From the NCBI RefSeq assembly GCF_001677475.2, contig NZ_CP015229.1: 64,000 nucleotides of DNA. One strand, given 5' to 3'. Under the pieces are notes generated by a model. That model was not told the DNA's origin. It did no database searches and worked only from the letters and a program-made list of their open reading frames with translations. Made by a program: the position numbers and the translations under genes. The DNA is from Escherichia coli (GTDB lineage: Bacteria > Pseudomonadota > Gammaproteobacteria > Enterobacterales > Enterobacteriaceae). Shown piece after piece: positions 6,744-36,772 of this stretch. Positions within the stretch are counted from its first letter, which is position 1. Each line of letters starts with the position of its first letter.

Positions 6744-6947
6744 ATGAAAAACGTGTTTAAGGCACTCACTGTATTACTTACTCTCTTCAGCCTGACGGGC
6801 TGCGGTCTGAAAGGTCCGCTCTATTTCCCGCCTGCAGATAAAAACGCACCGCCGCCGACCAAACCGGTAGAGACGCAAACGCAATCCACGGTGCCGGATA
6901 AAAACGACCGTGCCACTGGCGATGGTCCATCCCAGGTGAATTACTAA
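6744..6947 (+). CDS. yifL: Small lipoprotein YifL
   Basis: 67-aa ORF with lipobox LTGC, immediately upstream of dapF. Confidence 0.8.
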   Translation: MKNVFKALTVLLTLFSLTGCGLKGPLYFPPADKNAPPPTKPVETQTQSTVPDKNDRATGDGPSQVNY

Positions 6948-6983
6948 AAGTCAGTTTCTGTACCCGCGTGATTGGAGTAAATG

Positions 6984-7808
6984 ATGCAGTTCTCGAAAAT
7001 GCATGGCCTTGGCAACGATTTTATGGTCGTCGACGCGGTAACGCAGAATGTCTTTTTTTCACCGGAGCTGATTCGTCGCCTGGCGGATCGGCACCTGGGG
7101 GTAGGGTTTGACCAACTGCTGGTGGTTGAGCCACCGTATGATCCTGAACTGGATTTTCACTATCGCATTTTTAATGCTGATGGCAGTGAAGTGGCGCAGT
7201 GCGGCAACGGCGCGCGCTGCTTTGCCCGTTTTGTGCGTCTGAAAGGGCTGACCAATAAGCGCGATATCCGCGTCAGCACCGCCAACGGGCGGATGGTTCT
7301 GACCGTCACCGATGATGATCTGGTTCGCGTAAACATGGGCGAGCCCAACTTCGAACCTTCCGCTGTGCCGTTTCGCGCTAACAAAGCGGAAAAGACCTAT
7401 ATTATGCGCGCCGCCGAGCAGACAATCTTATGTGGCGTGGTGTCGATGGGAAATCCGCACTGCGTGATTCAGGTCGATGATGTCGATACCGCGGCGGTAG
7501 AAACGCTTGGTCCTGTTCTGGAAAGCCACGAGCGTTTTCCGGAGCGCGCCAATATCGGTTTTATGCAAGTGGTTAAGCGCGAGCATATTCGTTTACGCGT
7601 TTATGAGCGTGGGGCAGGAGAAACCCAGGCCTGCGGCAGCGGCGCATGTGCGGCGGTGGCGGTAGGGATTCAGCAAGGTTTGCTGGCCGAAGAAGTACGC
7701 GTGGAACTCCCCGGCGGTCGTCTTGATATCGCCTGGAAAGGTCCGGGTCACCCGTTATATATGACTGGCCCGGCGGTACATGTCTACGACGGATTTATTC
7801 ATCTATGA
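6984..7808 (+). CDS. dapF: Diaminopimelate epimerase
   Basis: ORF 6981-7808; start at second Met gives 274 aa; [17 protein letters not shown] motif. Confidence 0.9.
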
Positions 7809-8512
7809 AGCAACCAGGGGAAGAACTGCAGGAAACACTCACGGAGCTTGATGACCGGGCGGTTGTCGATTATCTGATTAAAAATCCTGAGTTTTTTATC
7901 CGCAATGCGCGCGCAGTTGAAGCGATACGTGTGCCGCATCCGGTACGCGGCACCGTTTCGTTGGTCGAATGGCACATGGCCCGTGCACGTAATCATATTC
8001 ATGTTCTGGAAGAGAACATGGCGTTGTTGATGGAGCAGGCTATCGCCAACGAAGGGCTGTTTTATCGCTTACTCTACTTGCAGCGCAGTCTCACCGCCGC
8101 CAGCAGTCTCGATGATATGCTGATGCGCTTTCACCGCTGGGCGCGCGATCTCGGCCTGGCGGGTGCGAGTCTGCGCCTGTTTCCGGATCGCTGGCGCTTA
8201 GGTGCGCCGTCGAACCACACTCATCTGGCATTAAGCCGTCAGTCTTTCGAACCGCTGCGTATTCAGCGTTTGGGGCAGGAACAGCACTATCTTGGGCCAC
8301 TTAACGGACCAGAGCTGCTGGTGGTGCTACCGGAAGCGAAAGCGGTGGGATCGGTGGCGATGTCGATGCTGGGAAGCGATGCTGATTTGGGTGTCGTGCT
8401 GTTTACCAGTCGCGATGCCAGTCACTATCAACAAGGGCAGGGAACGCAGTTACTTCATGAAATTGCGCTGATGTTGCCGGAGCTTCTGGAGCGTTGGATT
8501 GAACGCGTATGA
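7805..8512 (+). CDS. yigA: DUF484 protein YigA
   Basis: 235-aa ORF overlapping dapF stop and xerC start (operon dapF-yigA-xerC-yigB). Confidence 0.85.
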
Positions 8513-9405
8513 CCGATTTACACACCGATGTAGAACGCTACCTACGTTATCTGAGCGTGGAGCGTCAGCTTAGCCCGATAACCCTGCTTAACTATCAGCG
8601 TCAGCTTGAGGCGATCATCAATTTTGCCAGTGAAAACGGCCTGCAAAGCTGGCAGCAATGTGATGTGACGATGGTGCGCAATTTTGCTGTACGCAGTCGC
8701 CGTAAAGGGCTGGGAGCAGCAAGTCTGGCGTTACGGCTCTCTGCGCTACGTAGCTTTTTTGACTGGCTGGTCAGCCAGAACGAACTCAAAGCTAACCCGG
8801 CGAAAGGTGTTTCGGCACCGAAAGCGCCGCGTCATCTGCCGAAAAACATCGACGTCGACGATATGAATCGGCTGCTGGATATTGATATCAACGATCCCCT
8901 TGCTGTACGCGACCGTGCAATGCTGGAAGTGATGTACGGCGCGGGTCTGCGTCTTTCCGAGCTGGTGGGGCTGGATATAAAACACCTCGACCTGGAGTCC
9001 GGCGAAGTGTGGGTGATGGGGAAAGGCAGCAAAGAGCGCCGCCTGCCGATTGGTCGCAACGCTGTGGCGTGGATTGAGCACTGGCTTGATTTGCGCGACC
9101 TGTTTGGTAGCGAAGACGACGCGCTTTTTCTGTCGAAACTGGGCAAGCGTATCTCCGCGCGTAATGTGCAGAAACGCTTTGCCGAATGGGGCATAAAACA
9201 AGGGCTGAATAATCACGTTCACCCGCATAAATTACGTCACTCGTTCGCTACGCATATGCTGGAGTCGAGCGGCGATCTTCGTGGTGTGCAGGAGCTGCTG
9301 GGTCATGCCAACCTCTCCACCACGCAAATCTATACTCATCTTGATTTTCAACACCTTGCCTCGGTGTACGATGCGGCGCATCCACGCGCCAAACGGGGGA
9401 AATAA
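8509..9405 (+). CDS. xerC: Tyrosine site-specific recombinase XerC
   Basis: 298-aa ORF; C-terminal [10 protein letters not shown]...[15 protein letters not shown] catalytic motifs. Confidence 0.9.
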
Positions 9406-10121
9406 TGCGTTTTTACCGGCCTTTGGGGCGCATCTCGGCGCTCACCTTTGACCTGGATGATACCCTTTACGATAACCGTCCGGTGATTTTGCGCACCGAG
9501 CGAGAGGCGCTTACCTTTGTGCAAAATTATCATCCGGCGCTGCGCAGCTTCCAGAATGAAGATCTGCAACGCCTGCGCCAGGCGGTACGGGAAGCGGAAC
9601 CCGAGATTTATCACGACGTGACGCGCTGGCGTTTTCGTTCGATTGAACAAGCCATGCTCGACGCCGGGCTGAGTGCCGAAGAAGCCAGTGCAGGCGCACA
9701 CGCAGCAATGATCAACTTTGCCAAATGGCGCAGCCGAATCGATGTCCCGCAGCAAACCCACGACACCTTAAAACAGCTGGCGAAGAAATGGCCGCTGGTG
9801 GCGATCACCAACGGTAACGCCCAGCCGGAGCTGTTTGGTTTAGGGGATTATTTTGAGTTTGTGTTGCGCGCTGGCCCGCACGGGCGCTCAAAACCGTTCA
9901 GCGATATGTACTTCCTGGCGGCGGAAAAACTCAACGTGCCGATCGGCGAGATCTTACATGTCGGGGACGATCTCACCACTGACGTGGGTGGGGCAATTCG
10001 CAGCGGAATGCAGGCCTGTTGGATCAGACCGGAAAATGGCGATCTGATGCAAACCTGGGACAGCCGTTTACTCCCGCATCTGGAAATTTCCCGGTTGGCA
10101 TCTCTGACCTCGCTGATATAA
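9405..10121 (+). CDS. yigB: HAD-family FMN/5-amino-6-(5-phospho-D-ribitylamino)uracil phosphatase YigB
   Basis: 238-aa ORF with HAD motif FDLDDTLYD. Confidence 0.85.
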
Positions 10122-10130
10122 TCAGCAAAT

Positions 10131-10146
10131 CTGTATATATACCCAG
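10131..10146 (+). promoter_or_regulatory. LexA (SOS) box of uvrD promoter
   Basis: CTGTATATATACCCAG matches CTGT-N8-ACAG consensus ~60 bp upstream of uvrD start. Confidence 0.7.
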
Positions 10147-10204
10147 CTTTTTGGCGGAGGGCGTTGCGCTTCTCCGCCCAACCTATTTTTACGCGGCGGT
10201 GCCA

Positions 10205-12367
10205 ATGGACGTTTCTTACCTGCTCGACAGCCTTAATGACAAACAGCGCGAAGCGGTGGCCGCGCCACGCAGCAACCTTCTGGTGCTGGCGGGCGCGGGC
10301 AGTGGTAAGACGCGCGTACTGGTGCATCGTATCGCCTGGCTGATGAGCGTGGAAAACTGCTCGCCATACTCGATTATGGCGGTAACGTTTACCAACAAAG
10401 CGGCGGCAGAGATGCGTCATCGTATTGGGCAGCTGATGGGCACCAGCCAGGGCGGCATGTGGGTCGGCACCTTCCACGGGCTGGCGCACCGTCTGCTGCG
10501 TGCGCACCATATGGACGCCAATCTGCCGCAGGATTTTCAGATCCTCGACAGCGAGGACCAGCTACGCCTGCTCAAACGCCTAATCAAGGCGATGAACCTC
10601 GACGAGAAGCAGTGGCCGCCGCGCCAGGCAATGTGGTACATCAACAGCCAGAAAGATGAAGGCCTGCGTCCACATCATATTCAAAGCTACGGTAATCCGG
10701 TGGAGCAGACCTGGCAGAAGGTGTATCAGGCGTATCAGGAAGCGTGTGACCGCGCGGGCCTGGTGGACTTCGCCGAGCTGCTGCTACGTGCTCACGAGTT
10801 GTGGCTTAACAAGCCGCATATCCTTCAGCACTATCGCGAACGGTTTACCAATATCCTGGTGGACGAATTCCAGGATACCAACAACATTCAATACGCGTGG
10901 ATCCGCCTGCTGGCGGGCGATACCGGCAAAGTGATGATCGTTGGCGATGACGATCAGTCAATCTACGGCTGGCGCGGAGCGCAGGTGGAGAATATTCAGC
11001 GTTTCCTCAATGATTTCCCCGGTGCTGAAACTATCCGTCTGGAGCAGAACTACCGCTCTACCAGCAATATTCTGAGCGCCGCGAACGCCCTGATTGAAAA
11101 CAACAACGGGCGTTTGGGTAAAAAACTGTGGACCGATGGCGCGGACGGTGAGCCTATTTCCCTCTATTGCGCTTTTAACGAACTCGACGAAGCGCGTTTT
11201 GTGGTTAACCGTATCAAGACCTGGCAGGACAACGGTGGGGCGCTTGCCGAGTGCGCCATTCTCTACCGCAGCAACGCCCAGTCGCGTGTACTGGAAGAGG
11301 CCTTATTACAGGCGAGTATGCCGTACCGTATTTACGGCGGGATGCGCTTCTTCGAACGCCAGGAAATCAAAGATGCGCTCTCGTATCTGCGCCTGATTGC
11401 CAACCGTAACGACGACGCGGCCTTTGAGCGTGTGGTGAATACGCCAACGCGGGGTATTGGTGACCGGACGCTGGACGTGGTACGTCAGACATCGCGCGAT
11501 CGCCAGTTAACACTCTGGCAGGCATGTCGTGAACTGTTGCAGGAAAAAGCCCTCGCCGGACGTGCTGCCAGTGCCTTGCAACGGTTTATGGAACTGATCG
11601 ACGCCTTAGCGCAGGAAACTGCCGATATGCCGCTGCATGTACAGACTGACCGGGTCATTAAAGACTCCGGCCTGCGCACCATGTACGAGCAGGAGAAGGG
11701 CGAAAAAGGCCAGACGCGTATCGAAAACTTAGAGGAACTGGTGACGGCGACGCGCCAGTTCAGCTACAACGAAGAAGACGAAGATTTAATGCCGCTGCAG
11801 GCGTTCCTCTCCCATGCGGCACTGGAAGCAGGTGAAGGGCAGGCGGATACCTGGCAGGATGCGGTGCAGTTGATGACGCTACACTCGGCGAAAGGTCTGG
11901 AGTTCCCGCAGGTGTTTATCGTCGGTATGGAAGAGGGCATGTTCCCAAGCCAGATGTCGCTGGATGAAGGCGGACGTCTGGAAGAAGAACGCCGTCTGGC
12001 CTACGTTGGCGTAACCCGCGCGATGCAGAAACTGACGCTGACCTACGCGGAAACCCGCCGTCTGTATGGCAAAGAAGTTTACCATCGCCCGTCGCGCTTT
12101 ATCGGCGAGCTGCCGGAAGAGTGTGTGGAAGAGGTGCGCCTGCGCGCCACGGTAAGCCGCCCGGTCAGCCATCAACGGATGGGTACGCCGATGGTCGAGA
12201 ACGACAGCGGCTACAAGCTCGGCCAGCGCGTACGCCACGCTAAGTTTGGTGAAGGCACCATCGTCAATATGGAAGGCAGTGGCGAGCATAGCCGTTTGCA
12301 GGTGGCATTCCAGGGCCAGGGTATTAAATGGCTGGTGGCGGCTTACGCCCGGTTGGAGACGGTGTGA
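10205..12367 (+). CDS. uvrD: DNA helicase II (UvrD)
   Basis: ORF 10019-12367; start at internal Met (MDVSYLLDSLNDKQREAVAAP...) gives 720 aa; Walker A GAGSGKT. Confidence 0.95.
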   Translation: MDVSYLLDSLNDKQREAVAAPRSNLLVLAGAGSGKTRVLVHRIAWLMSVENCSPYSIMAVTFTNKAAAEMRHRIGQLMGTSQGGMWVGTFHGLAHRLLRAHHMDANLPQDFQILDSEDQLRLLKRLIKAMNLDEKQWPPRQAMWYINSQKDEGLRPHHIQSYGNPVEQTWQKVYQAYQEACDRAGLVDFAELLLRAHELWLNKPHILQHYRERFTNILVDEFQDTNNIQYAWIRLLAGDTGKVMIVGDDDQSIYGWRGAQVENIQRFLNDFPGAETIRLEQNYRSTSNILSAANALIENNNGRLGKKLWTDGADGEPISLYCAFNELDEARFVVNRIKTWQDNGGALAECAILYRSNAQSRVLEEALLQASMPYRIYGGMRFFERQEIKDALSYLRLIANRNDDAAFERVVNTPTRGIGDRTLDVVRQTSRDRQLTLWQACRELLQEKALAGRAASALQRFMELIDALAQETADMPLHVQTDRVIKDSGLRTMYEQEKGEKGQTRIENLEELVTATRQFSYNEEDEDLMPLQAFLSHAALEAGEGQADTWQDAVQLMTLHSAKGLEFPQVFIVGMEEGMFPSQMSLDEGGRLEEERRLAYVGVTRAMQKLTLTYAETRRLYGKEVYHRPSRFIGELPEECVEEVRLRATVSRPVSHQRMGTPMVENDSGYKLGQRVRHAKFGEGTIVNMEGSGEHSRLQVAFQGQGIKWLVAAYARLETV

Positions 12368-12371: not shown

Positions 12372-12402
12372 GCGGAATGCGGTGCGCCACACCGCATTCC
12401 GC
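12372..12402. terminator. Perfect 13-bp inverted repeat (GCGGAATGCGGTG-N5-CACCGCATTCCGC) between convergent uvrD and DUF62 gene
   Basis: Direct reading; strong GC stem, no flanking U-tract. Confidence 0.4.
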
Positions 12403-15488: not shown

Positions 15489-15518
15489 GCGGTGGCTTAG
15501 CCTGGCTAAGCCACCTGT
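15489..15518. terminator. Bidirectional rho-independent terminator between corA and yigF
   Basis: Hairpin GGTGGCTTAG-CCTGG-CTAAGCCACC with T-rich flanks on both strands. Confidence 0.55.
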
Positions 15519-26035: not shown

Positions 26036-28297
26036 ATGACAATTCTTAATCACACCCTCGGTTTCCCTCGCGTTGGCCTGCGTCGCGAGCTGAAAAAAGC
26101 GCAAGAAAGTTATTGGGCGGGGAACTCCACGCGTGAAGAATTACTGGCAGTAGGGCGTGAATTGCGTGCTCGTCACTGGGATCAACAAAAGCAGGCGGGT
26201 ATCGACCTGCTGCCGGTGGGCGATTTTGCCTGGTACGATCATGTTCTGACCACCAGCCTGCTGCTGGGTAACGTTCCGGCGCGTCATCAGAATAAAGACG
26301 GTTCGGTGGATATCGACACCCTGTTCCGTATTGGTCGCGGTCGTGCGCCAACTGGTGAACCTGCGGCGGCGGCAGAAATGACCAAATGGTTTAACACCAA
26401 CTATCACTACATGGTGCCGGAATTCGTTAAAGGCCAACAGTTCAAACTGACCTGGACGCAGCTGCTGGATGAAGTAGACGAGGCGCTGGCGTTGGGTCAC
26501 AAGGTGAAACCTGTGCTTCTGGGGCCGGTTACCTGGCTGTGGCTGGGTAAGGTGAAAGGTGAACAGTTTGACCGCCTGAGCCTGCTGAACGACATTCTGC
26601 CGGTTTATCAGCAGGTTCTGGCAGAACTGGCCAAACGTGGTATTGAGTGGGTACAGATTGACGAACCGGCGCTGGTGCTGGAACTGCCGCAGGCGTGGCT
26701 GGATGCGTATAAACCTGCTTACGATGCACTCCAGGGGCAGGTGAAACTGCTGCTGACCACCTATTTTGAAGGTGTAACGCCAAACCTTGACACGATTACT
26801 GCGCTGCCTGTTCAGGGGCTGCATGTGGACCTTGTACATGGTAAAGATGACGTTGTTGAACTGCACAAGCGTTTGCCTTCTGACTGGTTGCTGTCTGCGG
26901 GTCTGATCAATGGTCGTAACGTCTGGCGCGCCGATCTCACCGAGAAATATGCGCAAATTAAGGACATTGTCGGCAAACGTGATTTGTGGGTGGCATCTTC
27001 CTGCTCACTGCTGCATAGCCCCATCGACCTGAGCGTGGAAACGCGTCTTGATGTAGAAGTGAAAAGCTGGTTTGCCTTCGCCCTACAAAAATGCCATGAA
27101 CTGGCACTGCTGCGCGATGCGCTGAACAGTGGTGACACGGCAGCTCTGGCAGAGTGGAGCGCCCCAATTCAGGCGCGTCGTCACTCAACCCGCGTACATA
27201 ATCCGGCGGTAGAAAAGCGTCTGGCAGCGATCACCGCCCAGGACAGCCAGCGTGAGAATGTCTATGAAGTGCGTGCCGAAGCTCAGCGTGCGCGTTTTAA
27301 ACTGCCAGCGTGGCCGACCACCACGATTGGTTCTTTCCCGCAAACCACGGAAATTCGTACCCTGCGTCTGGATTTCAAAAAGGGTAATCTCGACGCCAAC
27401 AACTACCGCACGGGCATTGCGGAACATATCAAGCAGGCCATTGTTGAGCAGGAACGTTTAGGACTGGATGTGCTGGTACATGGCGAGGCTGAGCGTAATG
27501 ACATGGTGGAATACTTTGGCGAGCACCTCGACGGGTTTGTCTTTACGCAAAACGGTTGGGTACAGAGCTACGGTTCCCGCTGCGTGAAGCCACCGATTGT
27601 TATTGGTGACGTTAGCCGCCCGGCACCGATTACCGTGGAGTGGGCGAAGTATGCGCAATCGCTGACCGACAAACCGGTGAAAGGGATGCTGACCGGCCCG
27701 GTGACGATTCTCTGCTGGTCGTTCCCGCGTGAAGATGTCAGCCGTGAAACCATCGCCAAACAAATTGCGCTGGCGCTGCGTGATGAAGTGGCGGACCTGG
27801 AAGCCGCAGGAATTGGCATCATCCAGATTGATGAACCGGCGCTGCGCGAAGGTTTACCGCTGCGTCGCAGCGACTGGGATGCCTATCTCCAGTGGGGCGT
27901 GGAGGCTTTCCGTATCAACGCCGCCGTGGCGAAAGATGACACACAAATCCACACTCACATGTGTTACTGCGAGTTCAACGACATCATGGATTCGATTGCT
28001 GCACTGGACGCAGACGTCATCACCATCGAAACCTCGCGTTCTGACATGGAGTTGCTGGAGTCGTTCGAAGAGTTTGATTATCCGAATGAAATCGGTCCAG
28101 GCGTCTATGACATTCACTCGCCAAACGTACCGAGCGTGGAATGGATTGAAGCCTTGCTGAAGAAAGCGGCAAAACGCATTCCGGCAGAGCGCCTGTGGGT
28201 CAACCCGGACTGTGGCCTGAAAACGCGCGGCTGGCCAGAAACCCGCGCGGCACTGGCGAACATGGTGCAGGCGGCGCAGAATTTGCGTCGGGGATGA
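26036..28297 (+). CDS. metE: Cobalamin-independent methionine synthase
   Basis: 753-aa [32 protein letters not shown]. Confidence 0.95.
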
Positions 28298-28334
28298 TGA
28301 ATATTAACGAGTCACTGTAAATTGCAGTACGATA

Positions 28335-28365
28335 ATGGCTTCCAGCACTGGAAGCCATTTTGCTA
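28335..28365 (+). terminator. metE rho-independent terminator
   Basis: Hairpin ATGGCTTCC-AGCACT-GGAAGCCAT followed by TTT. Confidence 0.6.
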
Positions 28366-28390
28366 TGTGTGCTGGGTATTAAAAGGATTC

Positions 28391-29287
28391 TCAGGAACAG
28401 AAAATTAATTGCGGATTTCTTAAATATTCCATGCACCACTGGCAGGCTTTGCCCATACCATCGGAACGAGCGGCAAGAAATAACTTGGTGGCGTGTTTAT
28501 GTTCGCGCATTGGCTTTTTAAGCAATTTACCGCTGTTTAATAATGGCAATGCCAGATGATGTGGAATATAGCCAATACCGACGTTTTGTTCTATTAAGGC
28601 GATTGCCGTAGCGAAGTCAGGAACAAAAATGGGTTTTTGTCCTTCCAACAGCCAGGCTTGCATCGGGGGAAAGTTAACGGAGGTATCGCGGATACAAACC
28701 GCCGGATAATGACGCAATTCACTGTTTTCTAATGGATGCCGCTTCGCTGCCAGTGGGTGGAGTGGGCTGACGACAAAATCCCATTCCATTTGTCCGATCG
28801 GTTCGCTAATGATGCCTTCACTGCTTGGCACTGCATGAGGAGCACCGTAGACCAGATCGGCACGCTTACTGTACAGAGCATCCCAGCAGCCGTTGTATAC
28901 CTCAAGATCAACCGTCAGCGTTGTTGATGTGAATTGCCGTTCAAAATCTCGAATAAATGCCACCAGCAAATCACCAGGAATAATATTGTTCACCGCAATT
29001 GTTAGTTCACGCTCAATACCATCGTGAATCAGCACTGTGTTGCGCTTTAATGCTTCCAGGTCGCCAAGAATAGTTTTGCTATGTTCGATGAAGTAACTCC
29101 CCGCCGGAGATAATTCAATATAGCGTCCCTTACGAATGAACAGTTCAACGCCCAGGCTCTCTTCCGCTTTCTTGATGGTGTAACTGATGGCGGAAGGGAC
29201 TTTATTTAACTGCTCGGCTGCGGTGGTAATGCTCTGGTGTCTGGCGACCAGATGAATAACACGAAGCGTTTCGTCTGAGATGAACAT
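28391..29287 (-). CDS. LysR-family transcriptional regulator (island)
   Basis: 298-aa ORF; N-terminal HTH LVARHQSITTAAEQLNKVPSAISYTIKKAEESLGVELFIR. Confidence 0.85.
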   Translation of the reverse strand: MFISDETLRVIHLVARHQSITTAAEQLNKVPSAISYTIKKAEESLGVELFIRKGRYIELSPAGSYFIEHSKTILGDLEALKRNTVLIHDGIERELTIAVNNIIPGDLLVAFIRDFERQFTSTTLTVDLEVYNGCWDALYSKRADLVYGAPHAVPSSEGIISEPIGQMEWDFVVSPLHPLAAKRHPLENSELRHYPAVCIRDTSVNFPPMQAWLLEGQKPIFVPDFATAIALIEQNVGIGYIPHHLALPLLNSGKLLKKPMREHKHATKLFLAARSDGMGKACQWCMEYLRNPQLIFCS

Positions 29288-29364
29288 AAGGCTCCCTGGT
29301 CAGTGGTAAAGTGGCTGAATCTCTCCAGATTCAGCCGTAATCATTGCTTGAGTATACTCAGGAA

Positions 29365-30588
29365 TTAGCGGCGTTGACTTGCCCGACTGAGAATCGCATA
29401 CGCGATACATGCCACCAGAATCGAGTCTACCGAAGGGATCGTCGTCAGGGTGAATAAGCCTTTGACGGTCATAAAGCCAACCGCTGCGCCTATGATCCAT
29501 GCCGCGAATGTCAGCACTTTAATCTGTGACTCCTGGGCTAACACTGACTCTTGATAGCCATTACGGCGATAAAGGAAAAAGTCAGCGATATAAATTCCGG
29601 CAACGGGTGGCGTGGCGATACCGAGGAACAGCAGAAACGGAATAAACCACGCCATAATATCCAGACTGCCTACGATGGCGGAAAGGATACCCAGCGCCAC
29701 GGTAATCTGCCATTTTGGAAAGCGGGTAAGCAGTGTGGAAACCACCAGCGTGCCCTGGAACATATTGCCCGCGTTACCGGTGACGCAGGCGAAAATCAAC
29801 AACAGCGCCGCGGGCAGAACCGCACCGAATACCGCCATAGCACCCAGTAAAGATCCCTGACCACTAATGGCGCTCGGCGTTGCACCCGCCCAGTAGAGCA
29901 GAGGGTAGGCAACCAGAAACGTCACGCTTGCGGCAATCAGCGCATGTTTGCGGTTATGCACAAAACTACCGAAATCAGGCAGTGTGGCAACCAGCACAAT
30001 AATGGTGCCAACAACGGTGGAAACGGCGACACCCGTATTCATCTCCACAATCGCCGCTGGTGCTGTCACTTCGGTATGGGTTGCCACATAGAGGATGTAA
30101 CACAGCACCAGCGCGATAACCGGCACGGCAACCTGGGCAATTTTTCCCAGAACGGCAAAACCAAATGCCGTAGAGGCGATAAAAATGACACAGCCAGCCG
30201 CCACTAACAGTGCTAGTGGAACTTCCAGTCCATGTTGAGCCAGTAAGTCATGTACCGAATGACCAAACATATTGGCGGTAACGGCAATCCAGCCGAACAG
30301 ACTTATCGCCATCAAAATGTTAATGGCGATGGCCCCTTTTTCGCCAAACGAATATTTCACAATGCCATACGTTGGCAGGCGGGCTTTTTCTCCCACGCTA
30401 ATAGTGATGGCTGAAAGTAAGGTCAGAATGACGCCGCCTAACAATACGACGCTAATTAAACTGCCGCTGGAAAGTTGATTGCCGAGGCTTGAGGATGACA
30501 ACAGCACAGGTGTGACGGCAATACCCAACAAAATCATGGCAATACGCAATCCTGATGCCGTATTCAGACTCTCTTCTTTTTTACGCAT
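29365..30588 (-). CDS. NCS1-family (CodB-like purine/cytosine-type) permease (island)
   Basis: 407-aa polytopic membrane ORF; CodB-like segments incl. GIYIADFFLYRRNGY. Confidence 0.8.
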   Translation of the reverse strand: MRKKEESLNTASGLRIAMILLGIAVTPVLLSSSSLGNQLSSGSLISVVLLGGVILTLLSAITISVGEKARLPTYGIVKYSFGEKGAIAINILMAISLFGWIAVTANMFGHSVHDLLAQHGLEVPLALLVAAGCVIFIASTAFGFAVLGKIAQVAVPVIALVLCYILYVATHTEVTAPAAIVEMNTGVAVSTVVGTIIVLVATLPDFGSFVHNRKHALIAASVTFLVAYPLLYWAGATPSAISGQGSLLGAMAVFGAVLPAALLLIFACVTGNAGNMFQGTLVVSTLLTRFPKWQITVALGILSAIVGSLDIMAWFIPFLLFLGIATPPVAGIYIADFFLYRRNGYQESVLAQESQIKVLTFAAWIIGAAVGFMTVKGLFTLTTIPSVDSILVACIAYAILSRASQRR

Positions 30589-30613: not shown

Positions 30614-31003
30614 TTACACAGTATGAAAATGCCCGGTGTATTTGCGCCAGCTACCCAGTTCTGTAATTTCCCGTTGGCCTTCTGTGAGCCAGTTTTCAGC
30701 CAGTACACCGAGCACTTCGCTACCATCGGCAAGTTTGATTTTGCCTATTGCCAGCCCGGCAGGTTCGCTCATTAACAGAGCGGCAAAACTGGCCAGCGGT
30801 AGTTGCCAAATTTCTACGTCGACGTGTGTTCCACCTTCATTCACGCGAATCATTCCTGGATGGCGATCGTTAATACTCCACAGCCGGTAATGGGCGTCAG
30901 TTCTGTCTTCACGGACAAAAATGCCGCCCGCTTTTTGCATATTTGGGTTAAGTTCCAGGCCGCGCATCAGTGTTCCGTTAACGGCTAAAAGCGTTGTAGT
31001 CAT
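30614..31003 (-). CDS. Small protein resembling the allophanate hydrolase C-terminal (GGCT-like) domain (island)
   Basis: 129-aa ORF; LLAVNGTLMRGLELN...EIWQLPLASFAALLMSEPAGLAIGKIKLADGSEVLGVLAE pattern; recognised from memory of the domain, not searched. Confidence 0.5.
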   Translation of the reverse strand: MTTTLLAVNGTLMRGLELNPNMQKAGGIFVREDRTDAHYRLWSINDRHPGMIRVNEGGTHVDVEIWQLPLASFAALLMSEPAGLAIGKIKLADGSEVLGVLAENWLTEGQREITELGSWRKYTGHFHTV

Positions 31004-31019
31004 TATGTTCTCCAGAAAA

Positions 31020-31976
31020 TTAAAGGGTTATCCATGTACCGCTCTGATGCGCCAGGGCCGCTTTTATGGTTTGCGGTGAGGTAATCAGGCCGCTGGCCTG
31101 TTTGCCTTGTTGCTGGCTGGTATTGATGAAATCAACAATGGCTTCCACTTTGGGTTGCATACTGCCGACACCAAATTGACCTTCCCGCAACAGTGTTTGC
31201 GCTTCGGCAACGCTAATGGCGTCGAGCCACTGTTGTTGTGGTGTACCAAAGTTAATCGCCACTTTTTCTACTCCGGTGGGTATCACCAGCAGATCCGCAC
31301 CTAACTGACTGGCGAGCAGCGCGGAGGCCAGATCTTTATCGATCACGGCTTCCACACCTTTCAGTTGTTGCCCGTCTCGCACCACCGGAATGCCGCCGCC
31401 GCCGCAGGCAATAACCAGATATCCCTGTCGCACCAGATGAGCGATGGTGTTGTGTTCAATAATTTCCAGTGGCGCAGGAGAGGGAACCGTACGCCGCCAC
31501 CCGCGCCCGGCATCCTCCATCAGAGTCCAGCCGAGCTGCTGCTGGCGTTGTTGGGCCGTTGCTTCATCGAGAAACGCGCCAATCGGTTTACTGGGGCTGG
31601 CGAAAGCATCGTCATGTGGGCTAACTCGCGTTTGTGTCACTAGCGCAATTACCGGTTTGTTTATGCCACGGCGAGCGAGTTCGTTATGCAGCGCCTTCTG
31701 GAACATGTAGCCAATTGCGCCTTGTGTATCACCCACGGCGTAATCAAGCGGAACCGGAGAAACTTCGTTACAAGCAAGTTCAGAGCGACGCAGAATAAAG
31801 CCCACCTGCGGTCCATTACCGTGGGTTAGCACCAGATCCCATCCGGCTTCAACCATATCAACGATATGCTGCACGCTTTCCATCACTGCAACATATTGAT
31901 CGGGAATACTATTGTGTTGATCGTCTTGAATGAGCGCATTGCCGCCAACCGCGACAACAGCCAGTGGCTTAACCAT
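31020..31976 (-). CDS. Carbamate kinase (island)
   Basis: ORF 31020-32306; start at internal MVKPLAVVAVGGNAL (318 aa) overlapping the upstream gene stop by 8 nt; amino-acid-kinase fold motifs. Confidence 0.85.
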   Translation of the reverse strand: MVKPLAVVAVGGNALIQDDQHNSIPDQYVAVMESVQHIVDMVEAGWDLVLTHGNGPQVGFILRRSELACNEVSPVPLDYAVGDTQGAIGYMFQKALHNELARRGINKPVIALVTQTRVSPHDDAFASPSKPIGAFLDEATAQQRQQQLGWTLMEDAGRGWRRTVPSPAPLEIIEHNTIAHLVRQGYLVIACGGGGIPVVRDGQQLKGVEAVIDKDLASALLASQLGADLLVIPTGVEKVAINFGTPQQQWLDAISVAEAQTLLREGQFGVGSMQPKVEAIVDFINTSQQQGKQASGLITSPQTIKAALAHQSGTWITL

Positions 31977-33393
31977 GATGATTCTCCTTTGCGACGATCT
32001 CAGCCAGTGCACGTATAGCGGCGACAAAACAGGCCATCGGCGCAGTGGTGATCCCGGCACCAATTTGCCCGACTCCCGCTTGTTTGTGGGCGATACCCGT
32101 ATTGATGACCGGTAAAATGCCGCGATCGGTAACTTTACGCGCATCAATCCCTGCTGCGGTGGGGGCAAAATTGAGGGCAGGAAGTGTAAATGCGGGGTTA
32201 CCGCCGAGGGTGATTGCCTGCATCCGACGGCTGTTATTGGTGGCATCGGCAGGTGTGCCTCCCACAAATTTAACGATTGCCGGAGATGACGCCATCGCGA
32301 AGCCACCTACACCAGCGGTTTCGGTAATTGCGCTATCGCCCAAGTCAGCAGCGGCGTCGTCAACGCCAAATCCAGGGAAGAACAGACCTTCAACTGCATT
32401 GGCGGGAGCCTGGAACCAGCGATCGCCAGTACCGGAAAGCCGAATACCAAAATTCACCCCGTTACGCGCCATCACCGTAACCATTGAACTGAACGGTACA
32501 TTGGCGGCGGCATCCATCATTGCTTTACAGGCAGCCATCGACAGATTGAGGAAGAAGTGATCGTTACCGGTGATAAATGCTACGACGCGCTGGATATGTT
32601 CCTGTGGAAGAGAGCGGGCCAGCAATGCCGGGATCAGACGCTTAATCAGCAAACCGGTAGCGGCAGCATTGCGGTTATGAACTTCATCCCCCATATGTAG
32701 CGCCTGCGCCATTAATGGCTTGAGTTCCAGCTCGCCGTGTTGTGCGATTGCTGCTTTCATTGCCGGAGCCAGTTCATCGCGCATCCAGGCCAGACGATTG
32801 AGAACTTCGTCGTTATTGGCGCCAAAACGGAGAACCTTACCCAGACCTTCATTGAAATTACTAAAAGTACGATGACCGTTGGTTTTATTTTCCACCACCC
32901 ATAACGGCATTGACGGGCTGATGATGCCTGCCATTGGTCCAACCGCGTGATAATGATGACAAGGGGCAAGGTCGATTTCGCCTGCGTTTATCTGGTTTTC
33001 TGCGTCTTGCTGGCTGGTGGCCCAACCTTCGTACAGCATGGCACCAATAATCGCCCCTTTTACCGGACCACACATCTCTTCCCAGGTAATCGGCGGGCCA
33101 GAGTGCAAAATACGTTTTTGTTCAGCCATTGCTGGAATGGCCTCTTTAGCGAGCATGACATCCACCAGCACGGGCTGTGCTTCGAGATAACGTGTCATGG
33201 CGATTTGGTTGGCATTTTCTACCAGTGGATGACGTAGCAACGATGCCAGATCCAATCCAGCGTCAATATCGCCTTGTGCTGGTGGCTGCCAGTTGAGTGC
33301 AATTGCGCTTCCCCCGGCATGTTGAATATTGTCAGCAAAACTGTGTAGTCCCGCGTTCACGACCTTCAAAGACTGATTAAATAAGGTATTCAT
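31969..33393 (-). CDS. DUF1116 protein, YahG/YlbE-like (island)
   Basis: ORF 31969-33444; start at MNTLFNQSLKVVNAG (474 aa) forms ATGA overlap with FdrA-like stop. Confidence 0.8.
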   Translation of the reverse strand: MNTLFNQSLKVVNAGLHSFADNIQHAGGSAIALNWQPPAQGDIDAGLDLASLLRHPLVENANQIAMTRYLEAQPVLVDVMLAKEAIPAMAEQKRILHSGPPITWEEMCGPVKGAIIGAMLYEGWATSQQDAENQINAGEIDLAPCHHYHAVGPMAGIISPSMPLWVVENKTNGHRTFSNFNEGLGKVLRFGANNDEVLNRLAWMRDELAPAMKAAIAQHGELELKPLMAQALHMGDEVHNRNAAATGLLIKRLIPALLARSLPQEHIQRVVAFITGNDHFFLNLSMAACKAMMDAAANVPFSSMVTVMARNGVNFGIRLSGTGDRWFQAPANAVEGLFFPGFGVDDAAADLGDSAITETAGVGGFAMASSPAIVKFVGGTPADATNNSRRMQAITLGGNPAFTLPALNFAPTAAGIDARKVTDRGILPVINTGIAHKQAGVGQIGAGITTAPMACFVAAIRALAEIVAKENHHG

Positions 33394-34949
33394 GCGTTTA
33401 GCCCCTTTTTCTGCAACTGAGTCTGTGCAACGGTGCTGGCCCATAGCGCCGCCTGTGCATTGCTGCTGGCGATGATGACCCCTGCATTTTGTAGTGCGCT
33501 TATCTGCTGGCTGCGTATTTGCGGATCAGCTTCCGTTCCGCAAACGTGCGCAATCAGCAACGGTGCGTTATTCATGTCGATGTGTGAAAGTTGGTCCAGT
33601 AATTCGCTGGCAGGCGTCGTGGAAGCGCCATAACCAAGTACCAGGTCGAATAACACGACGGCAGTGTGTGAGTCGTTGAGTTCGTTGAGCAGACGTTGAT
33701 TGCGCAGAGTCGGATCGATCATTGGATGCGGTTTGCCACGGGTGAAATCATCGTCGCCCATATCGATCAACGTGTGATCTTCGCTTTGCCAGATATTTGC
33801 CAGAGCACGATTACCCGCAACTGGCGTATTGGAAGCTGCGCTGAATCCCTTTTGTTGGCAGATAAGTTGCGCTTCGTAGCAGAAGGTTCCTCCGGCGAAA
33901 ACACCGCGTATCGCCTGGCGATGGGCTGGCAGGCGCTGGCAGGCGTTTTGTAACATTGTGAGATCGTCGCAGGGTACATCGGTTTCGACAGCCGGAAATG
34001 GCTGAGCATTCAGTAACGCCACAGCGATGTCGGCGGCGCTGGCAAGTGTGGTGGCGGCAGTGATATTGGGACGTGCCAGATCATGCGGATTCGCCCCGAG
34101 GAAATTCACCACCACGGGTTTTCCACAAGCCTCGGCGCGCTCCAGAATAGTCCGGGCAACGATCGGTGAAGGCGGTTTTGAAATAAGCACAATCACGCGA
34201 GTTTCATCGTCTTGCGCCAGCGCATCTAAAGCGAAGAGCATCGATATTCCACTAATCTCTTCACTGAGATCATGTCCGCCTGTTCCCAACGCCTGAGAAA
34301 TACCCGCTCCGAGCTGGTCGATTCGGCAAGTCACTTCCTGTAGCCCGGTGCCTGACGCGCCAATAACACCAATCGCTCCACGTTTCACCACATTGGCGAA
34401 GCCTAACGGAATGCCGTTAACGATGGCGGTTCCACAGTCAGGTCCCATTACGATGCGCTGACGTTCTCGGGCAAGTGTTTTGATGGATTTTTCCTGCGCG
34501 ATACTGACGTTATCGCTGAACATCATCACGTTCATTCCGAGGTTTAACGCTTTAATTGCTTCGGCGGCGGCGTAGTCTCCCGGTACAGAAATGAGTGCCA
34601 GGTTGGCTTCGGGTTCGGCTTCCAGTGCCATTTCCAGGCTGACCTTTTCCGGTGTTTTAATGCCACTACCCGTTTCATCATCGGGTTTGCTGGTCAGACG
34701 TTGCTGGGCCAGTACCAGTGCTTCATTGCAAATATCTTCTTCACCCATGACTGCAATCACTAAATCATTGGGACTGGCGTTGATTTCGTTACCCAGACCC
34801 ACATCGCGCAATTGTTCGAGATTATTGGGTGTTCCCATGACGACCGAAGCCTGTTGAATACCGGGCAATTTGCTGATTTGCGCGGAAATCTGCATCAGAG
34901 AAACCGAGTCCTGATAAAGATTGCTGAGAACTTTATGTTTAACTTTCAT
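33390..34949 (-). CDS. FdrA/YahF-like protein (succinyl-CoA-synthetase-alpha-like CoA-binding fold) (island)
   Basis: 519-aa ORF; GxGxxG-type glycine-rich segments VIGASGTGLQEV, LGTGGHDL. Confidence 0.8.
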   Translation of the reverse strand: MKVKHKVLSNLYQDSVSLMQISAQISKLPGIQQASVVMGTPNNLEQLRDVGLGNEINASPNDLVIAVMGEEDICNEALVLAQQRLTSKPDDETGSGIKTPEKVSLEMALEAEPEANLALISVPGDYAAAEAIKALNLGMNVMMFSDNVSIAQEKSIKTLARERQRIVMGPDCGTAIVNGIPLGFANVVKRGAIGVIGASGTGLQEVTCRIDQLGAGISQALGTGGHDLSEEISGISMLFALDALAQDDETRVIVLISKPPSPIVARTILERAEACGKPVVVNFLGANPHDLARPNITAATTLASAADIAVALLNAQPFPAVETDVPCDDLTMLQNACQRLPAHRQAIRGVFAGGTFCYEAQLICQQKGFSAASNTPVAGNRALANIWQSEDHTLIDMGDDDFTRGKPHPMIDPTLRNQRLLNELNDSHTAVVLFDLVLGYGASTTPASELLDQLSHIDMNNAPLLIAHVCGTEADPQIRSQQISALQNAGVIIASSNAQAALWASTVAQTQLQKKGLNA

Positions 34950-35043
34950 GCTGTTACGCCTGTTTCATTCCGCCCGATAGTAAAATTCGGGCAAAGCATC
35001 CCCGTGTAGCGCCATAAATGAGCTACAGGAGAAAAGGTTGAAA

Positions 35044-35904
35044 TCAATTCATGGTGTTCAGGGTTCGAAAGCCATGCAGCATTCCTGCAAGGCAATCCAC
35101 TCCTGACGTTGCGCCAAATTGCATGACCTGTTCTGCACAGGATGCGATTGTCATTGCCGATGCGCCCCCAACCAGTTGTGCGAGTAACTGGCAAATCGGT
35201 TCTGAAAAATGCCCCCGAAGCGCACGCTCCAGATAATGACGACTGATGTCAGTGGTGTTGTGCGCATGTTGATCAATTGCCTGCTGCAACCGGTATTGAT
35301 GAGCGGCAAGTGGTGCAGGTAGTTGCCATAACCAGAGCGCTGCCAGATAGCCCAACAAATAGTCATCTCCATCGGGAGTTAAGCCTTTGCCAAAGCCGAT
35401 CAGTTGTGGCACCTGGCGTTCCAGCGCATCTGGATGTTCCATAATCTCTAATCCCTGGTGCGTGAGACTATCCGGCAGGTGCAATGTGCTTTGAACGTTA
35501 TGCTCCAGACAAAATAAAAGCCGTTGCGATGCCATCGTTGGGTAGTGCTGGAAAACCAAAGGGAACGCCTCAAGTGTCAGCCTTCCTCCCACAAATGACG
35601 GCTGCCAGAGCGTTGCGTTATCGAGAGCCACACAAAAGCGAGGTGTCTGCAGCAAGCCTGGGGTTAACTGAACGGGATCGGAATGGGCAATCTCTCTTCG
35701 CCAGTCCCAACGCTTAGGCAGCCAGACTCTGGCAGCATCAGGGAGATTCAGATACGTTTGCGCACACAACAGGGTGATGAATGTTCCCGCTTCTGAATAC
35801 AGATTTACCGCATGTTTAAAAGCACTGTGCAGACGTAAATCTTGCGTTTCATTCCACGGGAAAAGATATCCCAACGACGATGCGCAAAGCGTAACCTGTA
35901 CCAT
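35044..35904 (-). CDS. DUF2877 protein, YahE/YlbF-like (island)
   Basis: 286-aa ORF located where yahE/ylbF sit relative to FdrA-like genes; 5-nt gap to upstream gene. Confidence 0.65.
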   Translation of the reverse strand: MVQVTLCASSLGYLFPWNETQDLRLHSAFKHAVNLYSEAGTFITLLCAQTYLNLPDAARVWLPKRWDWRREIAHSDPVQLTPGLLQTPRFCVALDNATLWQPSFVGGRLTLEAFPLVFQHYPTMASQRLLFCLEHNVQSTLHLPDSLTHQGLEIMEHPDALERQVPQLIGFGKGLTPDGDDYLLGYLAALWLWQLPAPLAAHQYRLQQAIDQHAHNTTDISRHYLERALRGHFSEPICQLLAQLVGGASAMTIASCAEQVMQFGATSGVDCLAGMLHGFRTLNTMN

Positions 35905-35909
35905 CGGTG

Positions 35910-36578
35910 TTAGCCTTCCAGGCCTGCAATAATGGCTTTGGAATCAGTAACCCAACCGAAAATGGCACCTTGTGCTTTGATCATCTCCAGGGCGTATTTC
36001 TGGAATTCCGGGAAATAGGAGCCAACGCAATCTTCCGGGATGATGCACTCATAACCACGATCATTCGCTTCGCGCACGGTGGTGGTCACACAGACTTCCG
36101 TGGTTACTCCGCAAACAATCAGCGTTTTGATGCCGTGGTTTTGCAAAATCAGATGTAAGTCGGTTTGATAAAAAGCGCCTTTGCCGGGTTTATCAATCAC
36201 CGGTTCGCCTGCGACCGGGTACAGTTCAGGAATGATGTCATGACCTGCTTCACCTCTGACCAGAATGCGCCCCATCGGGCCTGCTTCACCAATAAAGGTT
36301 TTACCGCCGCGCGTCAGTTTGGCTGGTGGGCAGTCGCTTAAGTCTGCACGATGGCCTTCACGGGTATGAATAACCATAATTCCTTTTTGACGTGCGGCTG
36401 CCAGCACCTCTGTACATGGAGCGATAGCCGTGCGTACCAGTGAAACATCATTGCCCAGTGCCTCACCGAAGCCCCCTGCTTCGACAAAGTCACGCTGCAT
36501 GTCGATCATGACCAGTGCAGTTGTGCGCGGATCAAAAGGTAATTCAAAGGGTTGAGCCTGAAAAATGGATTGCGTCAT
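35910..36578 (-). CDS. Isochorismatase-family cysteine amidohydrolase (island, first gene of operon)
   Basis: 222-aa ORF; LVMIDMQRDF, conserved Cys in LIVCGVTTEVCV; good SD GGAGA upstream. Confidence 0.8.
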   Translation of the reverse strand: MTQSIFQAQPFELPFDPRTTALVMIDMQRDFVEAGGFGEALGNDVSLVRTAIAPCTEVLAAARQKGIMVIHTREGHRADLSDCPPAKLTRGGKTFIGEAGPMGRILVRGEAGHDIIPELYPVAGEPVIDKPGKGAFYQTDLHLILQNHGIKTLIVCGVTTEVCVTTTVREANDRGYECIIPEDCVGSYFPEFQKYALEMIKAQGAIFGWVTDSKAIIAGLEG

Positions 36579-36665
36579 GGTAAATCTCCTGTCTGATGTT
36601 TAAACGATCCAGTTGTTCTGAGAACGAGTATTCAGGAGAAAAGCGGCACAAAACAGGAAAAAAGT

Positions 36666-36772
36666 TTGCCGCACAGCAACGAAATTTTTGCATTCAGCAG
36701 GCGGCGTGATGACGAATGTGAAGGGGGTCAAATCGTGGCATACAGCAACAAAATTTTTGATGCTGTATGGTT
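36666..36772. promoter_or_regulatory. Island operon promoter/operator region with two copies of a palindromic motif (ACAGCAAC-R-AAATTTTTG) 70 bp apart
   Basis: Direct reading: copies at ~36673-36692 and ~36743-36762; second copy within 9-bp inverted repeat CATACAGCA-N13-TGCTGTATG. Confidence 0.4.

What the first reader, a model, noticed from the sequence alone, without database searches (positions are those of the whole stretch)
29313..29336. Perfect 10-bp inverted repeat between the permease stop and the LysR gene start
GGCTGAATCT-CTCC-AGATTCAGCC lies in the 77-bp spacer between the NCS1 permease and the co-directional LysR gene. It could be an attenuating hairpin that uncouples LysR expression from the operon, or an autoregulatory LysR site. 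The regulator is co-directional at the operon end rather than divergent, which is atypical for LysR-family genes.
Basis: seen in the sequence. Interest (0 to 1): 0.3.

Follow-up and report, generated by a model that had tools for sequence, protein, structure and literature searches.

The report
Conserved RNA hairpin before a LysR gene
The palindrome is real and is the tip of a conserved RNA stem-loop between a permease gene and the regulator gene that follows it, most likely there to keep the regulator's expression separate from the operon's; it is an ordinary kind of element, not a protein-binding site.

Summary
The perfect 10+10 bp inverted repeat with a 4-nt loop is at 29313-29336, as reported. 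It lies in the 77-nt spacer between an NCS1-type permease gene and a LysR gene, both on the minus strand. It is not chance. Twenty-one distinct related spacers from Escherichia, Citrobacter, Lelliottia, Edwardsiella, Buttiauxella and metagenomes keep a hairpin at this position while the arm sequences change. Eleven of 13 pairs show compensatory changes. Interior wobble pairs are G·U only on the coding strand, so the signal is in the sense RNA.

The hairpin caps a longer stem. The base of that stem pairs UUCCUG, which follows the permease stop codon, with the lysR Shine-Dalgarno. A nearly invariant GTATAAT/GTATACT box sits in between and is probably lysR's own -10.

In Rahnella, Silvimonas and one Caballeronia the same position holds a canonical terminator with a U-run. 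Where lysR is not preceded by the operon, no strong hairpin is present.

My best reading is an RNA-level insulator acting on operon read-through: weak attenuation plus Shine-Dalgarno masking. The LysR-operator idea is rejected, because the LysR helix-turn-helix is invariant, the arms vary, and the conserved operon-promoter boxes do not match the repeat. It is a new member of a known kind, of low to moderate interest.

The parts
29313..29336 (-). P3: apical RNA hairpin (the finding). GGCUGAAUCU-GGAG-AGAUUCAGCC on the sense strand, -15.7 kcal/mol.
   Evidence: Covariation: 11 of 13 pairs with double changes and 86% of cells paired across 21 distinct sequences. Interior non-Watson-Crick cells are 6 G·U against 0 A·C on the sense strand.
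29359..29364 (-). P1 5' strand, UUCCUG, directly after the permease stop codon. It is complementary to the lysR Shine-Dalgarno region (anti-SD).
   Evidence: Folds. TCC is invariant and the core pairs are about 100% paired. One pair covaries (UA 13, CG 5, UG 2, one unpaired cell that is C-C, no C-A).
29351..29356 (-). -10-like box TATACT (TATAAT in most relatives), lying between P1 and P2. Putative lysR-own promoter; the predicted start is near 29344.
   Evidence: T-A-T are invariant and A4 and T6 are at least 90% conserved in alignments A1, A3 and A4. The box is kept upstream of lysR in Serratia loci where the upstream sequence differs. No matching -35 was found and the promoter scan does not call it. 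Inference only.
29292..29299 (-). P1 3' strand, CCAGGGAG. It contains the lysR Shine-Dalgarno AGGGAG (29297-29292).
   Evidence: In the window fold, 5 of the 6 Shine-Dalgarno bases pair with UUCCUG.
28391..29287 (-). LysR-family regulator gene (298 aa).
29365..30588 (-). NCS1-type (cytosine/purine/allantoin family) permease gene, the last structural gene of the operon.
36743..36765 (-). Distal conserved dyad box CAGCATCAAAAATTTTGTTGCTG in the operon promoter region. Putative LysR binding site.
   Evidence: Conserved upstream of the first gene across Enterobacterales. Top PWM hit in the window. Inverted repeat I1. Binding is inferred, not shown.
36673..36695 (-). Proximal conserved box GAATGCAAAAATTTCGTTGCTGT in the operon promoter region. 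Putative LysR activation site.
36627..36632 (-). Operon -10-like AATACT, within CCTGAATACTC. It resembles the lysR-proximal CCTGAGTATACTC.
   Evidence: Inference.
28334..28359 (.). Perfect 12-bp inverted repeat between the convergent metE and lysR stops. Likely a shared terminator and the true end of the transcription unit.

Best explanation
The repeat is an RNA element read from the minus (coding) strand. It is the stable tip (P3) of a three-tier stem that spans the whole permease-lysR spacer.

In RNA that reads through from the operon, the full stem can form. Its base (P1) pairs UUCCUG, immediately after the permease stop codon, with the lysR Shine-Dalgarno. P3 nucleates and stabilises this fold. 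With its weak U-stretch (ACUUUACC), P3 may also cause some pausing or termination, or may stop 3' exonucleases.

lysR is probably also transcribed from its own weak promoter, whose -10 (TATACT, 29356-29351) lies between P1 and P2. Transcripts from that promoter lack the anti-SD strand.

The net effect is that regulator synthesis is set mainly by lysR's own promoter and is insulated from induction of the operon that LysR controls.

Shown here: the structure exists, it is conserved by compensatory change, the constraint acts on the sense strand, it is linked to the operon-then-lysR gene order, and it is replaced by true terminators in other lineages. Inferred: the promoter, the Shine-Dalgarno masking effect and the direction of regulation.
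For: 1. Conservation by covariation. P3 is 86% paired with 11 of 13 pairs showing double changes in 21 distinct sequences. Slid controls reach at most 44% and 0 of 500 shuffles reach the observed score.
2. Strand. Interior mismatches are G·U on the sense strand (6) and never A·C (0).
3. Context dependence. A strong hairpin (median -18 kcal/mol) lies within 80 nt upstream of lysR in all 32 loci where lysR follows the operon. The median is -5 in the 8 loci where lysR comes first. Values are -9.5 and -3.4 in the two Enterobacterales loci where the gene upstream of lysR is divergent.
4. Terminators in other lineages. U-runs of 5-7 follow the stem at the same position in Rahnella and a relative (4 loci), Silvimonas (2) and Caballeronia L032. 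The Rahnella one is flagged by the terminator scan.
5. P1. The P1 core is paired in essentially all sequences. One pair covaries U-A to C-G in at least 3 lineages with no C-A. Whole-spacer folds have z = -2.7 (window), -3.5 (BL21), and -5.5 to -6.9 in relatives.
6. Promoter position. GTATA[AC]T is the most conserved non-coding block. In L010 and L062 it abuts the hairpin, so a start there would fall inside the 5' arm. This points to a role for P3 in read-through RNA rather than in lysR's own transcript.
Against: In the window the tail after the stem has only three U's and the terminator scan does not call it, so termination is probably inefficient there.

Predicted Shine-Dalgarno accessibility does not differ between read-through and promoter-proximal RNAs for the E. 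coli or window sequence. There the Shine-Dalgarno can also pair with codons 3-5. The difference appears only in 5-6 relatives.

P1 has a single covarying pair, and RNAalifold predicts only P3.

No -35 element or mapped transcription start supports the promoter.

The sequences are related, and the low G+C content of the Vibrio-type loci inflates the contrast.

No transcript data were found for this locus.
Confidence: 0.5

Rival explanations
1. mRNA stability element. The hairpin is a barrier to 3'-to-5' exonucleases, or a processing landmark, that defines and protects the 3' end of the operon mRNA. Transcription would stop further downstream, for example by Rho inside poorly translated lysR. 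The hairpin itself would have no role in regulating lysR.
For: A stable hairpin without a U-tract is conserved with covariation in many Enterobacterales. It always follows the last structural gene, even after an extra transporter gene was inserted in Serratia sp. DD3. It is absent when no operon lies upstream.
Against: This does not explain the conserved complementarity between the post-stop UUCCUG and the Shine-Dalgarno. It also does not explain why canonical terminators occupy the position in other lineages. It is partly compatible with the best explanation rather than exclusive of it.
Confidence: 0.2
2. Translational coupling device. P1 masks the lysR Shine-Dalgarno. A ribosome terminating at the permease stop codon, which directly abuts the P1 5' strand, melts P1. 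LysR would then be made from the polycistronic mRNA in proportion to permease translation, giving positive feedback rather than insulation.
For: The P1 5' strand starts 0-1 nt after the stop codon in all Enterobacteriaceae-type spacers. This is the classical geometry for coupling through Shine-Dalgarno sequestration (general knowledge, for example the MS2 coat and replicase genes). The Shine-Dalgarno is predicted to be paired with P = 0.6-0.98.
Against: Other lineages place efficient terminators here, which argues for selection against read-through expression. A conserved -10-like box implies independent transcription. The 77-nt distance is long for termination-reinitiation.
Confidence: 0.12
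3. 5'-UTR stabiliser. The hairpin belongs to lysR's own transcript, which would start about 8 nt upstream of it, and protects that mRNA from 5'-end-dependent decay.
For: The -10-like box lies 14 nt upstream of the stem in the window, which would place the hairpin at about +8 to +31. The box and hairpin stay together with lysR in the Serratia loci.
Against: lysR orthologues that stand first or alone have similar -10-like boxes but no leader hairpin. In L010 and L062 the box abuts the stem, so the start would fall inside the 5' arm. In Rahnella the hairpin is a full terminator, which would abort such transcripts.
Confidence: 0.08
4. DNA operator. The palindrome is bound by LysR (autoregulation) or by another dimeric regulator.
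For: It is a perfect dyad close to the lysR start, and LysR-type regulators commonly autoregulate (general knowledge).
Against: The LysR recognition region (LNKVPSAISYT) is invariant from E. coli to Caballeronia, yet the arms change at 11 of 13 positions, always in a compensating way. G·U-only asymmetry indicates an RNA constraint. A PWM of the conserved operon-promoter boxes scores negative anywhere in 29260-29420. There is no symmetric T-N11-A, because the dyad has an even length with a 4-nt centre.
Confidence: 0.04

Closest known systems
Intra-operon intrinsic terminators or attenuators that set differential expression of downstream genes (for example the rplL-rpoB attenuator and the rpsU-dnaG T1 terminator of E. 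coli; from my own knowledge)
   Same: A stem-loop in an intercistronic spacer after a stop codon, acting on read-through RNA. Orthologous positions in Rahnella, Silvimonas and Caballeronia L032 carry a canonical stem plus U-run.
   Different: In the window and most Enterobacteriaceae-type spacers the U-tract is missing. The structure instead extends to mask the downstream Shine-Dalgarno.
Intercistronic stabilising hairpins (the malE-malF REP, the Rhodobacter puf operon hairpins; from my own knowledge)
   Same: A stable hairpin without a U-tract just downstream of a cistron, which could protect upstream mRNA from 3' exonucleases.
   Different: It is not a member of a repeated family: single copy in the window and a median of one place per E. 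coli genome. No decay data exist.
Shine-Dalgarno-sequestering structures used for translational coupling or insulation (MS2 coat/replicase, several ribosomal-protein operons; from my own knowledge)
   Same: The downstream Shine-Dalgarno pairs with sequence at the end of the upstream cistron.
   Different: Only one covarying pair supports the helix. The predicted effect on accessibility is not robust for the E. coli sequence. A probable promoter is embedded within the structure.
LysR-type regulator operators (T-N11-A boxes)
   Same: A dyad-symmetric sequence near a LysR gene.
   Different: The sequence is not conserved, is under RNA-type constraint, and does not match the conserved boxes GCATCAA-N-TTGC at the operon promoter.
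xapABR of E. coli K-12: a LysR-type regulator gene lying co-directionally downstream of the catabolic gene and permease it controls (from my own recollection; the original papers could not be retrieved)
   Same: The gene order is catabolic genes, then permease, then a co-directional LysR gene, so the regulator is exposed to read-through.
   Different: The proteins and spacer are unrelated. I could not check whether xapB-xapR has a comparable structure.

Membership tests
Intrinsic (Rho-independent) terminator | Stable G+C-containing stem-loop downstream of a stop codon | tested here: met
   10-bp perfect stem, -15.7 kcal/mol, starting 28 nt after the permease stop.
Intrinsic (Rho-independent) terminator | U-rich tract immediately 3' of the stem | tested here: not met
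   The tail is ACUUUACCA: 3 U's, a run of 3, offset by 2 nt. It is not flagged by the scan. The feature is met at the same position in 7 of 26 related loci.
Intrinsic (Rho-independent) terminator | RNA 3' ends generated at the site | not testable with these tools
   No transcript data for this locus were found.
LysR-type regulator operator | Site sequence conserved among orthologues that share the DNA-reading head | tested here: not met
   The helix-turn-helix recognition region is invariant while the arms vary at 11 of 13 pairs.
LysR-type regulator operator | Resemblance to the sites at the regulated promoter, and the T-N11-A dyad | tested here: not met
   PWMs of the two conserved operon-promoter boxes score -1.9 or lower in 29260-29420, against 29 at their own sites. 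The dyad has an even length with a 4-nt centre, so there is no symmetric T-N11-A.
LysR-type regulator operator | Protein binding | not testable with these tools
   Needs EMSA or footprinting.
REP/BIME-type repeated extragenic palindromes | Many dispersed copies per genome | tested here: not met
   One match in the 64-kb window with up to 3 mismatches. The 171-nt spacer query has a median of one place per E. coli genome.
Any curated RNA family (Rfam 15) | Covariance-model match | tested here: not met
   Only chance-level hits (E of 5 or more) to unrelated eukaryotic and archaeal families in 28200-29700.
Shine-Dalgarno-sequestering intercistronic structure | Downstream Shine-Dalgarno base-paired with upstream sequence, supported by covariation | tested here: inconclusive
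   The P1 core pairs are about 100% paired and one pair covaries (UA 13, CG 5, UG 2). RNAalifold does not predict P1, and the accessibility difference is absent for the E. coli sequence.
Sigma-70 promoter (for the GTATACT box) | -10 and -35 hexamers with 16-18 bp spacing, and a mapped start | tested here: inconclusive
   The -10-like hexamer is nearly invariant. There is no acceptable -35, the scan does not call it, and no start-site data exist.

The most novel reading that the evidence does not exclude
The spacer is a compact 'promoter inside a stem' insulator. The -10 box of lysR's own promoter is placed between the two strands that mask the lysR Shine-Dalgarno. The same DNA would then give two RNA isoforms: read-through RNA in which lysR is translationally silent (and possibly Rho-terminated and trimmed back to the hairpin), and promoter-proximal RNA in which the Shine-Dalgarno is free. 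This would be a general way for co-directional LysR-type regulators to avoid runaway positive feedback. Other lineages would reach the same end with a plain terminator.
Probability: 0.2. Interest if true: 0.5.

Novelty: new member of a known kind. Interest (0 to 1): 0.3.

Why it matters
The element sits in an uncharacterised eight-gene catabolic island. The island encodes an isochorismatase-family hydrolase, AllH-, FdrA- and AllG-like oxamate-carbamoyltransferase-type subunits, a carbamate kinase, an AH_C protein, an NCS1 permease and LysR. It is carried by about 29% of complete E. coli genomes, including BL21, Nissle 1917, ATCC 25922, ST131 and APEC plasmids, and by many other Proteobacteria.

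Knowing that lysR is set apart from the operon by a conserved RNA structure, and that the likely LysR boxes lie at 36673-36765, gives a concrete regulatory map for anyone studying this island. It is also a tidy example of how a co-directional LysR-type regulator can be insulated from its own target operon. It does not change any general principle.

Tried and rejected
1. LysR operator. Rejected, on the invariant helix-turn-helix against variable arms, the G·U asymmetry and the PWM scan.
2. Repeated element (REP-like). Rejected: single copy.
3. Known RNA family. No Rfam match.
4. Canonical terminator in the window. Not met, because there is no U-tract.
5. Leader peptide. The window spacer contains AUG AUU ... 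UGA (14 codons), but it has no Shine-Dalgarno and the AUG is absent in E69 and other genera. Dismissed.
6. Purine-rich, Shine-Dalgarno-like loops (GGAG, AGGAA) as decoys for the UUCCUG strand. Seen in about half of the sequences only. Not pursued.
7. Thermodynamic test of Shine-Dalgarno unmasking in promoter-proximal RNA. This gave no difference for E. coli, so the masking step is kept as inference.
8. Literature search for transcription-start or Term-seq data in BL21 or Nissle, and for the xapR precedent. Nothing usable was found. The only paper mentioning the island (GR 29 of APEC BEN2908, PMC12928451) lists genes and says nothing on regulation.
9. The terminator scan missed the evident Silvimonas, Caballeronia and Enterobacter terminators because of how it extends stems. 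U-runs were therefore counted directly.

Full report
OBSERVATION. The sequence GGCTGAATCT-CTCC-AGATTCAGCC is at 29313-29336. Both flanking genes are on the minus strand. The permease ORF runs 30588..29365 and the LysR ORF runs 29287..28391, which leaves a 77-nt spacer. Pfam assigns Transp_cyt_pur to the former and HTH_1 plus LysR_substrate to the latter. The pattern is unique in the window even with three mismatches allowed, against 0 in 100 shuffles. The window has five perfect inverted repeats of at least 10 bp with short loops, where about 0.5 are expected. The 24-mer folds at -15.7 kcal/mol, z = -5.6.

CONTEXT. The window is Escherichia DNA, 98% identical to E. coli. The repeat lies inside an accessory eight-gene island between metE and ysgA:
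- isochorismatase-family hydrolase
- AllH-like (DUF2877) protein
- FdrA-like protein
- AllG-like (DUF1116) protein
- carbamate kinase
- AH_C protein
- NCS1 permease
- LysR

All eight genes are co-directional. The spacer is present in 1555 of 5426 complete E. coli genomes, including BL21, Nissle 1917, ATCC 25922, NC101 and ST131, and is also on APEC plasmids. Within E. coli the hairpin is invariant.

A scan of one genome per species returned 46 loci with LysR orthologues. The same gene order with lysR last occurs in Enterobacterales, Silvimonas, Dyella, Paraburkholderia and Caballeronia. In Vibrio, Photobacterium, Shewanella, Halomonas and Motilimonas lysR is first. It is never divergent from the operon.

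THE HAIRPIN IS A CONSERVED RNA STRUCTURE. The 140 nt upstream of lysR show a hairpin at the same place with different arm sequences in Citrobacter, Lelliottia, Edwardsiella, Buttiauxella and Serratia.

On an 11-sequence alignment, 86.7% of cells pair and 9 of 13 pairs show changes on both sides. Slid controls reach at most 43%. RNAalifold predicts the same helix independently.

I added twelve further loci found through LysR homologues. These brought new arm variants: CGACUGAACC/GGUUCAGUCG, CAGCUGAAC/GUUCAGCUG, CGGCUGAGCC/GGCUCAGCCG, and an unrelated stem in L062. On 21 distinct sequences, 11 of 13 pairs carry compensatory changes, 86% of cells pair, 0 of 500 shuffles reach the observed score, and slid controls reach at most 44%.

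Interior non-Watson-Crick cells are six G·U and no A·C on the coding strand. On the opposite strand these would be mismatches, so the constraint acts on the sense transcript.

NOT A LysR SITE. The N-terminal recognition region of LysR (…LNKVPSAISYT…) is invariant from E. coli to Caballeronia, whereas the arms are not.

The region upstream of the first operon gene carries two conserved dyad boxes: GCATCAA-N-TTGC type in Enterobacterales and ATCAAA-N3-TTTGAT in Vibrio-type loci. In the window these are at 36743-36765 and 36673-36695. PWMs built from these boxes recover them as the top hits in the 64-kb window and score negative throughout 29260-29420. That these boxes bind LysR is an inference. 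The palindrome is in any case not a copy of them.

A LARGER STRUCTURE. Folding the whole spacer shows that the hairpin (P3) caps a three-tier stem.
- P1 pairs UUCCUG(G), directly after the permease stop codon, with CCAGGRA, which is the lysR Shine-Dalgarno.
- P2 (UGGCA/UGCCA) is good in Citrobacter, Lelliottia, Edwardsiella and Buttiauxella, and degraded in E. coli.

Whole-spacer z-scores are -2.7 (window), -3.5 (BL21) and -4.3 to -6.9 in relatives.

On the 22-sequence alignment, P2 is 82% paired with 4 of 5 pairs covarying. P1 is 82% paired. Its four core pairs are essentially always paired, and one of them covaries (U-A 13, C-G 5, U·G 2, no C-A).

P1 is therefore supported mostly by conservation. 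RNAalifold does not call it.

Between P1 and P2 lies GTATA[AC]T (window 29356-29351). It is the most conserved non-coding block and has the conservation pattern expected of a -10 hexamer. It resembles the operon's own CCTGAATACTC. It stays with lysR in Serratia loci where upstream sequence was inserted or replaced. No -35 is evident and the promoter scan does not call it, so the promoter is an inference.

LINK TO READ-THROUGH. In all 32 loci where lysR follows the operon, a strong hairpin lies within 80 nt of the lysR start (median -18 kcal/mol). In the eight lysR-first loci the best hairpin has a median of -5. In two Enterobacterales loci where the gene upstream of lysR is divergent (L015, L016) the values are -9.5 and -3.4. 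The caveats are lower G+C in the Vibrio-type loci and shared ancestry.

In Rahnella and a relative (4 loci), Silvimonas (2) and Caballeronia L032, the stem is followed by a run of 5-7 T. The Rahnella site is called terminator-like by the scan. In the window the tail is ACTTTACCA and is not called.

In L010 and L062 the -10-like box abuts the stem, so a start there would fall inside the 5' arm. This argues that P3 matters for read-through RNA rather than for lysR's own transcript.

MECHANISM. I commit to an RNA-level insulator. On read-through RNA, P3 nucleates a fold that masks the lysR Shine-Dalgarno. P3 may also cause weak termination or exonuclease arrest. lysR is expressed mainly from its own promoter, whose transcripts lack the anti-SD strand.

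The weak points are these. Computed Shine-Dalgarno accessibility does not differ between the two RNA forms for the E. coli or window sequence, because the Shine-Dalgarno can also pair with codons 3-5. It differs only in L003, L005, L007, L009, L010 and L011. No transcript-end data exist for this locus.

The rivals are a pure 3'-end stabiliser, a translational coupling device, a 5'-UTR stabiliser, a DNA operator, and chance. The last two are effectively excluded.

COMPARISON AND NOVELTY. The element works like an intra-operon attenuator or Shine-Dalgarno-masking intercistronic hairpin. It fails the U-tract criterion for a canonical intrinsic terminator in this genome. It is not a REP element, has no Rfam family, and is not a LysR box.

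It has not been described. The only paper found on the island lists genes only (PMC12928451). The kind of element is familiar, though, so I class it as a new member of a known kind, with interest 0.3.

The most novel reading still open is a 'promoter inside a stem' giving two isoforms with different Shine-Dalgarno exposure. I give it a probability of about 0.2.

Noticed in passing
window 36673-36695 and 36743-36765 (minus strand); also L002-L046 upstream of the first operon gene: Two conserved A/T-centred dyad boxes (GCATCAAAAATTTTGTTGC and TGCAAAAATTTCGTTGC) lie about 70 bp apart upstream of the isochorismatase-family gene. They are conserved from E. coli to Vibrio-type loci (as ATCAAA-N3-TTTGAT). 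They are probably the LysR recognition and activation sites of the operon promoter.
   Followed up: partly
window 30614-36578 (minus strand): The operon combines AllH-, FdrA- and AllG-like subunits (Pfam now names these oxamate carbamoyltransferase subunits) with a carbamate kinase, an isochorismatase-family hydrolase, a stand-alone allophanate-hydrolase C-terminal domain protein and an NCS1 permease. This looks like an uncharacterised ATP-yielding ureide or N-heterocycle catabolic pathway. It is listed only as 'GR 29' in the APEC BEN2908 genome paper.
   Followed up: partly
L049 (NZ_CP126927.1, APEC plasmid) 2846-11024: The whole eight-gene cluster, including the spacer hairpin, also occurs on large APEC plasmids flanked by IS and transposase remnants (125 plasmid places among E. 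coli genomes). The island is therefore mobile.
   Followed up: partly
L050 (E. coli CFE299) around 1556-1625: A rare variant has a 9-bp deletion that removes TAATTCCTG, that is the permease stop codon and the proposed anti-SD strand, and so extends the permease ORF. It is a natural mutant that could test the P1 idea.
   Followed up: no
window 28334-28359: A perfect 12-bp inverted repeat (AATGGCTTCCAG-CA-CTGGAAGCCATT) lies between the convergent metE and lysR stop codons. A T-run follows it on the + strand. It is probably the metE terminator shared with the island's end.
   Followed up: no
window 12374-12400, 15491-15515, 62320-62345: Three other perfect inverted repeats of at least 10 bp with short loops, presumably terminators. 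They were not examined.
   Followed up: no
window 29344-29300 (minus strand): A 14-codon ORF (AUG AUU ACG ... CAC UGA) runs through the hairpin in E. coli-type spacers. It has no Shine-Dalgarno, and its AUG is missing in strain E69 and in other genera, so it is probably fortuitous.
   Followed up: partly
L013, L014, L024, L060 (Serratia-type spacers), about 60 nt upstream of lysR: In Serratia-type spacers a second box, CAUAAUGA, is perfectly complementary to UCAUUAUG, which covers the lysR start codon. This masks the initiation region in a different way from the UUCCUG/Shine-Dalgarno pairing of Enterobacteriaceae.
   Followed up: partly
L024 8308-9912: Serratia sp. DD3 has an extra 534-aa transporter gene inserted between the NCS1 permease and lysR. 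The -10-like box and hairpin remain directly upstream of lysR.
   Followed up: partly
L018 about 9790-9850: One Enterobacteriaceae locus carries a REP-like perfect stem of about 24 bp (-48 kcal/mol) right after the permease stop, in addition to a U-tract hairpin nearer to lysR.
   Followed up: no
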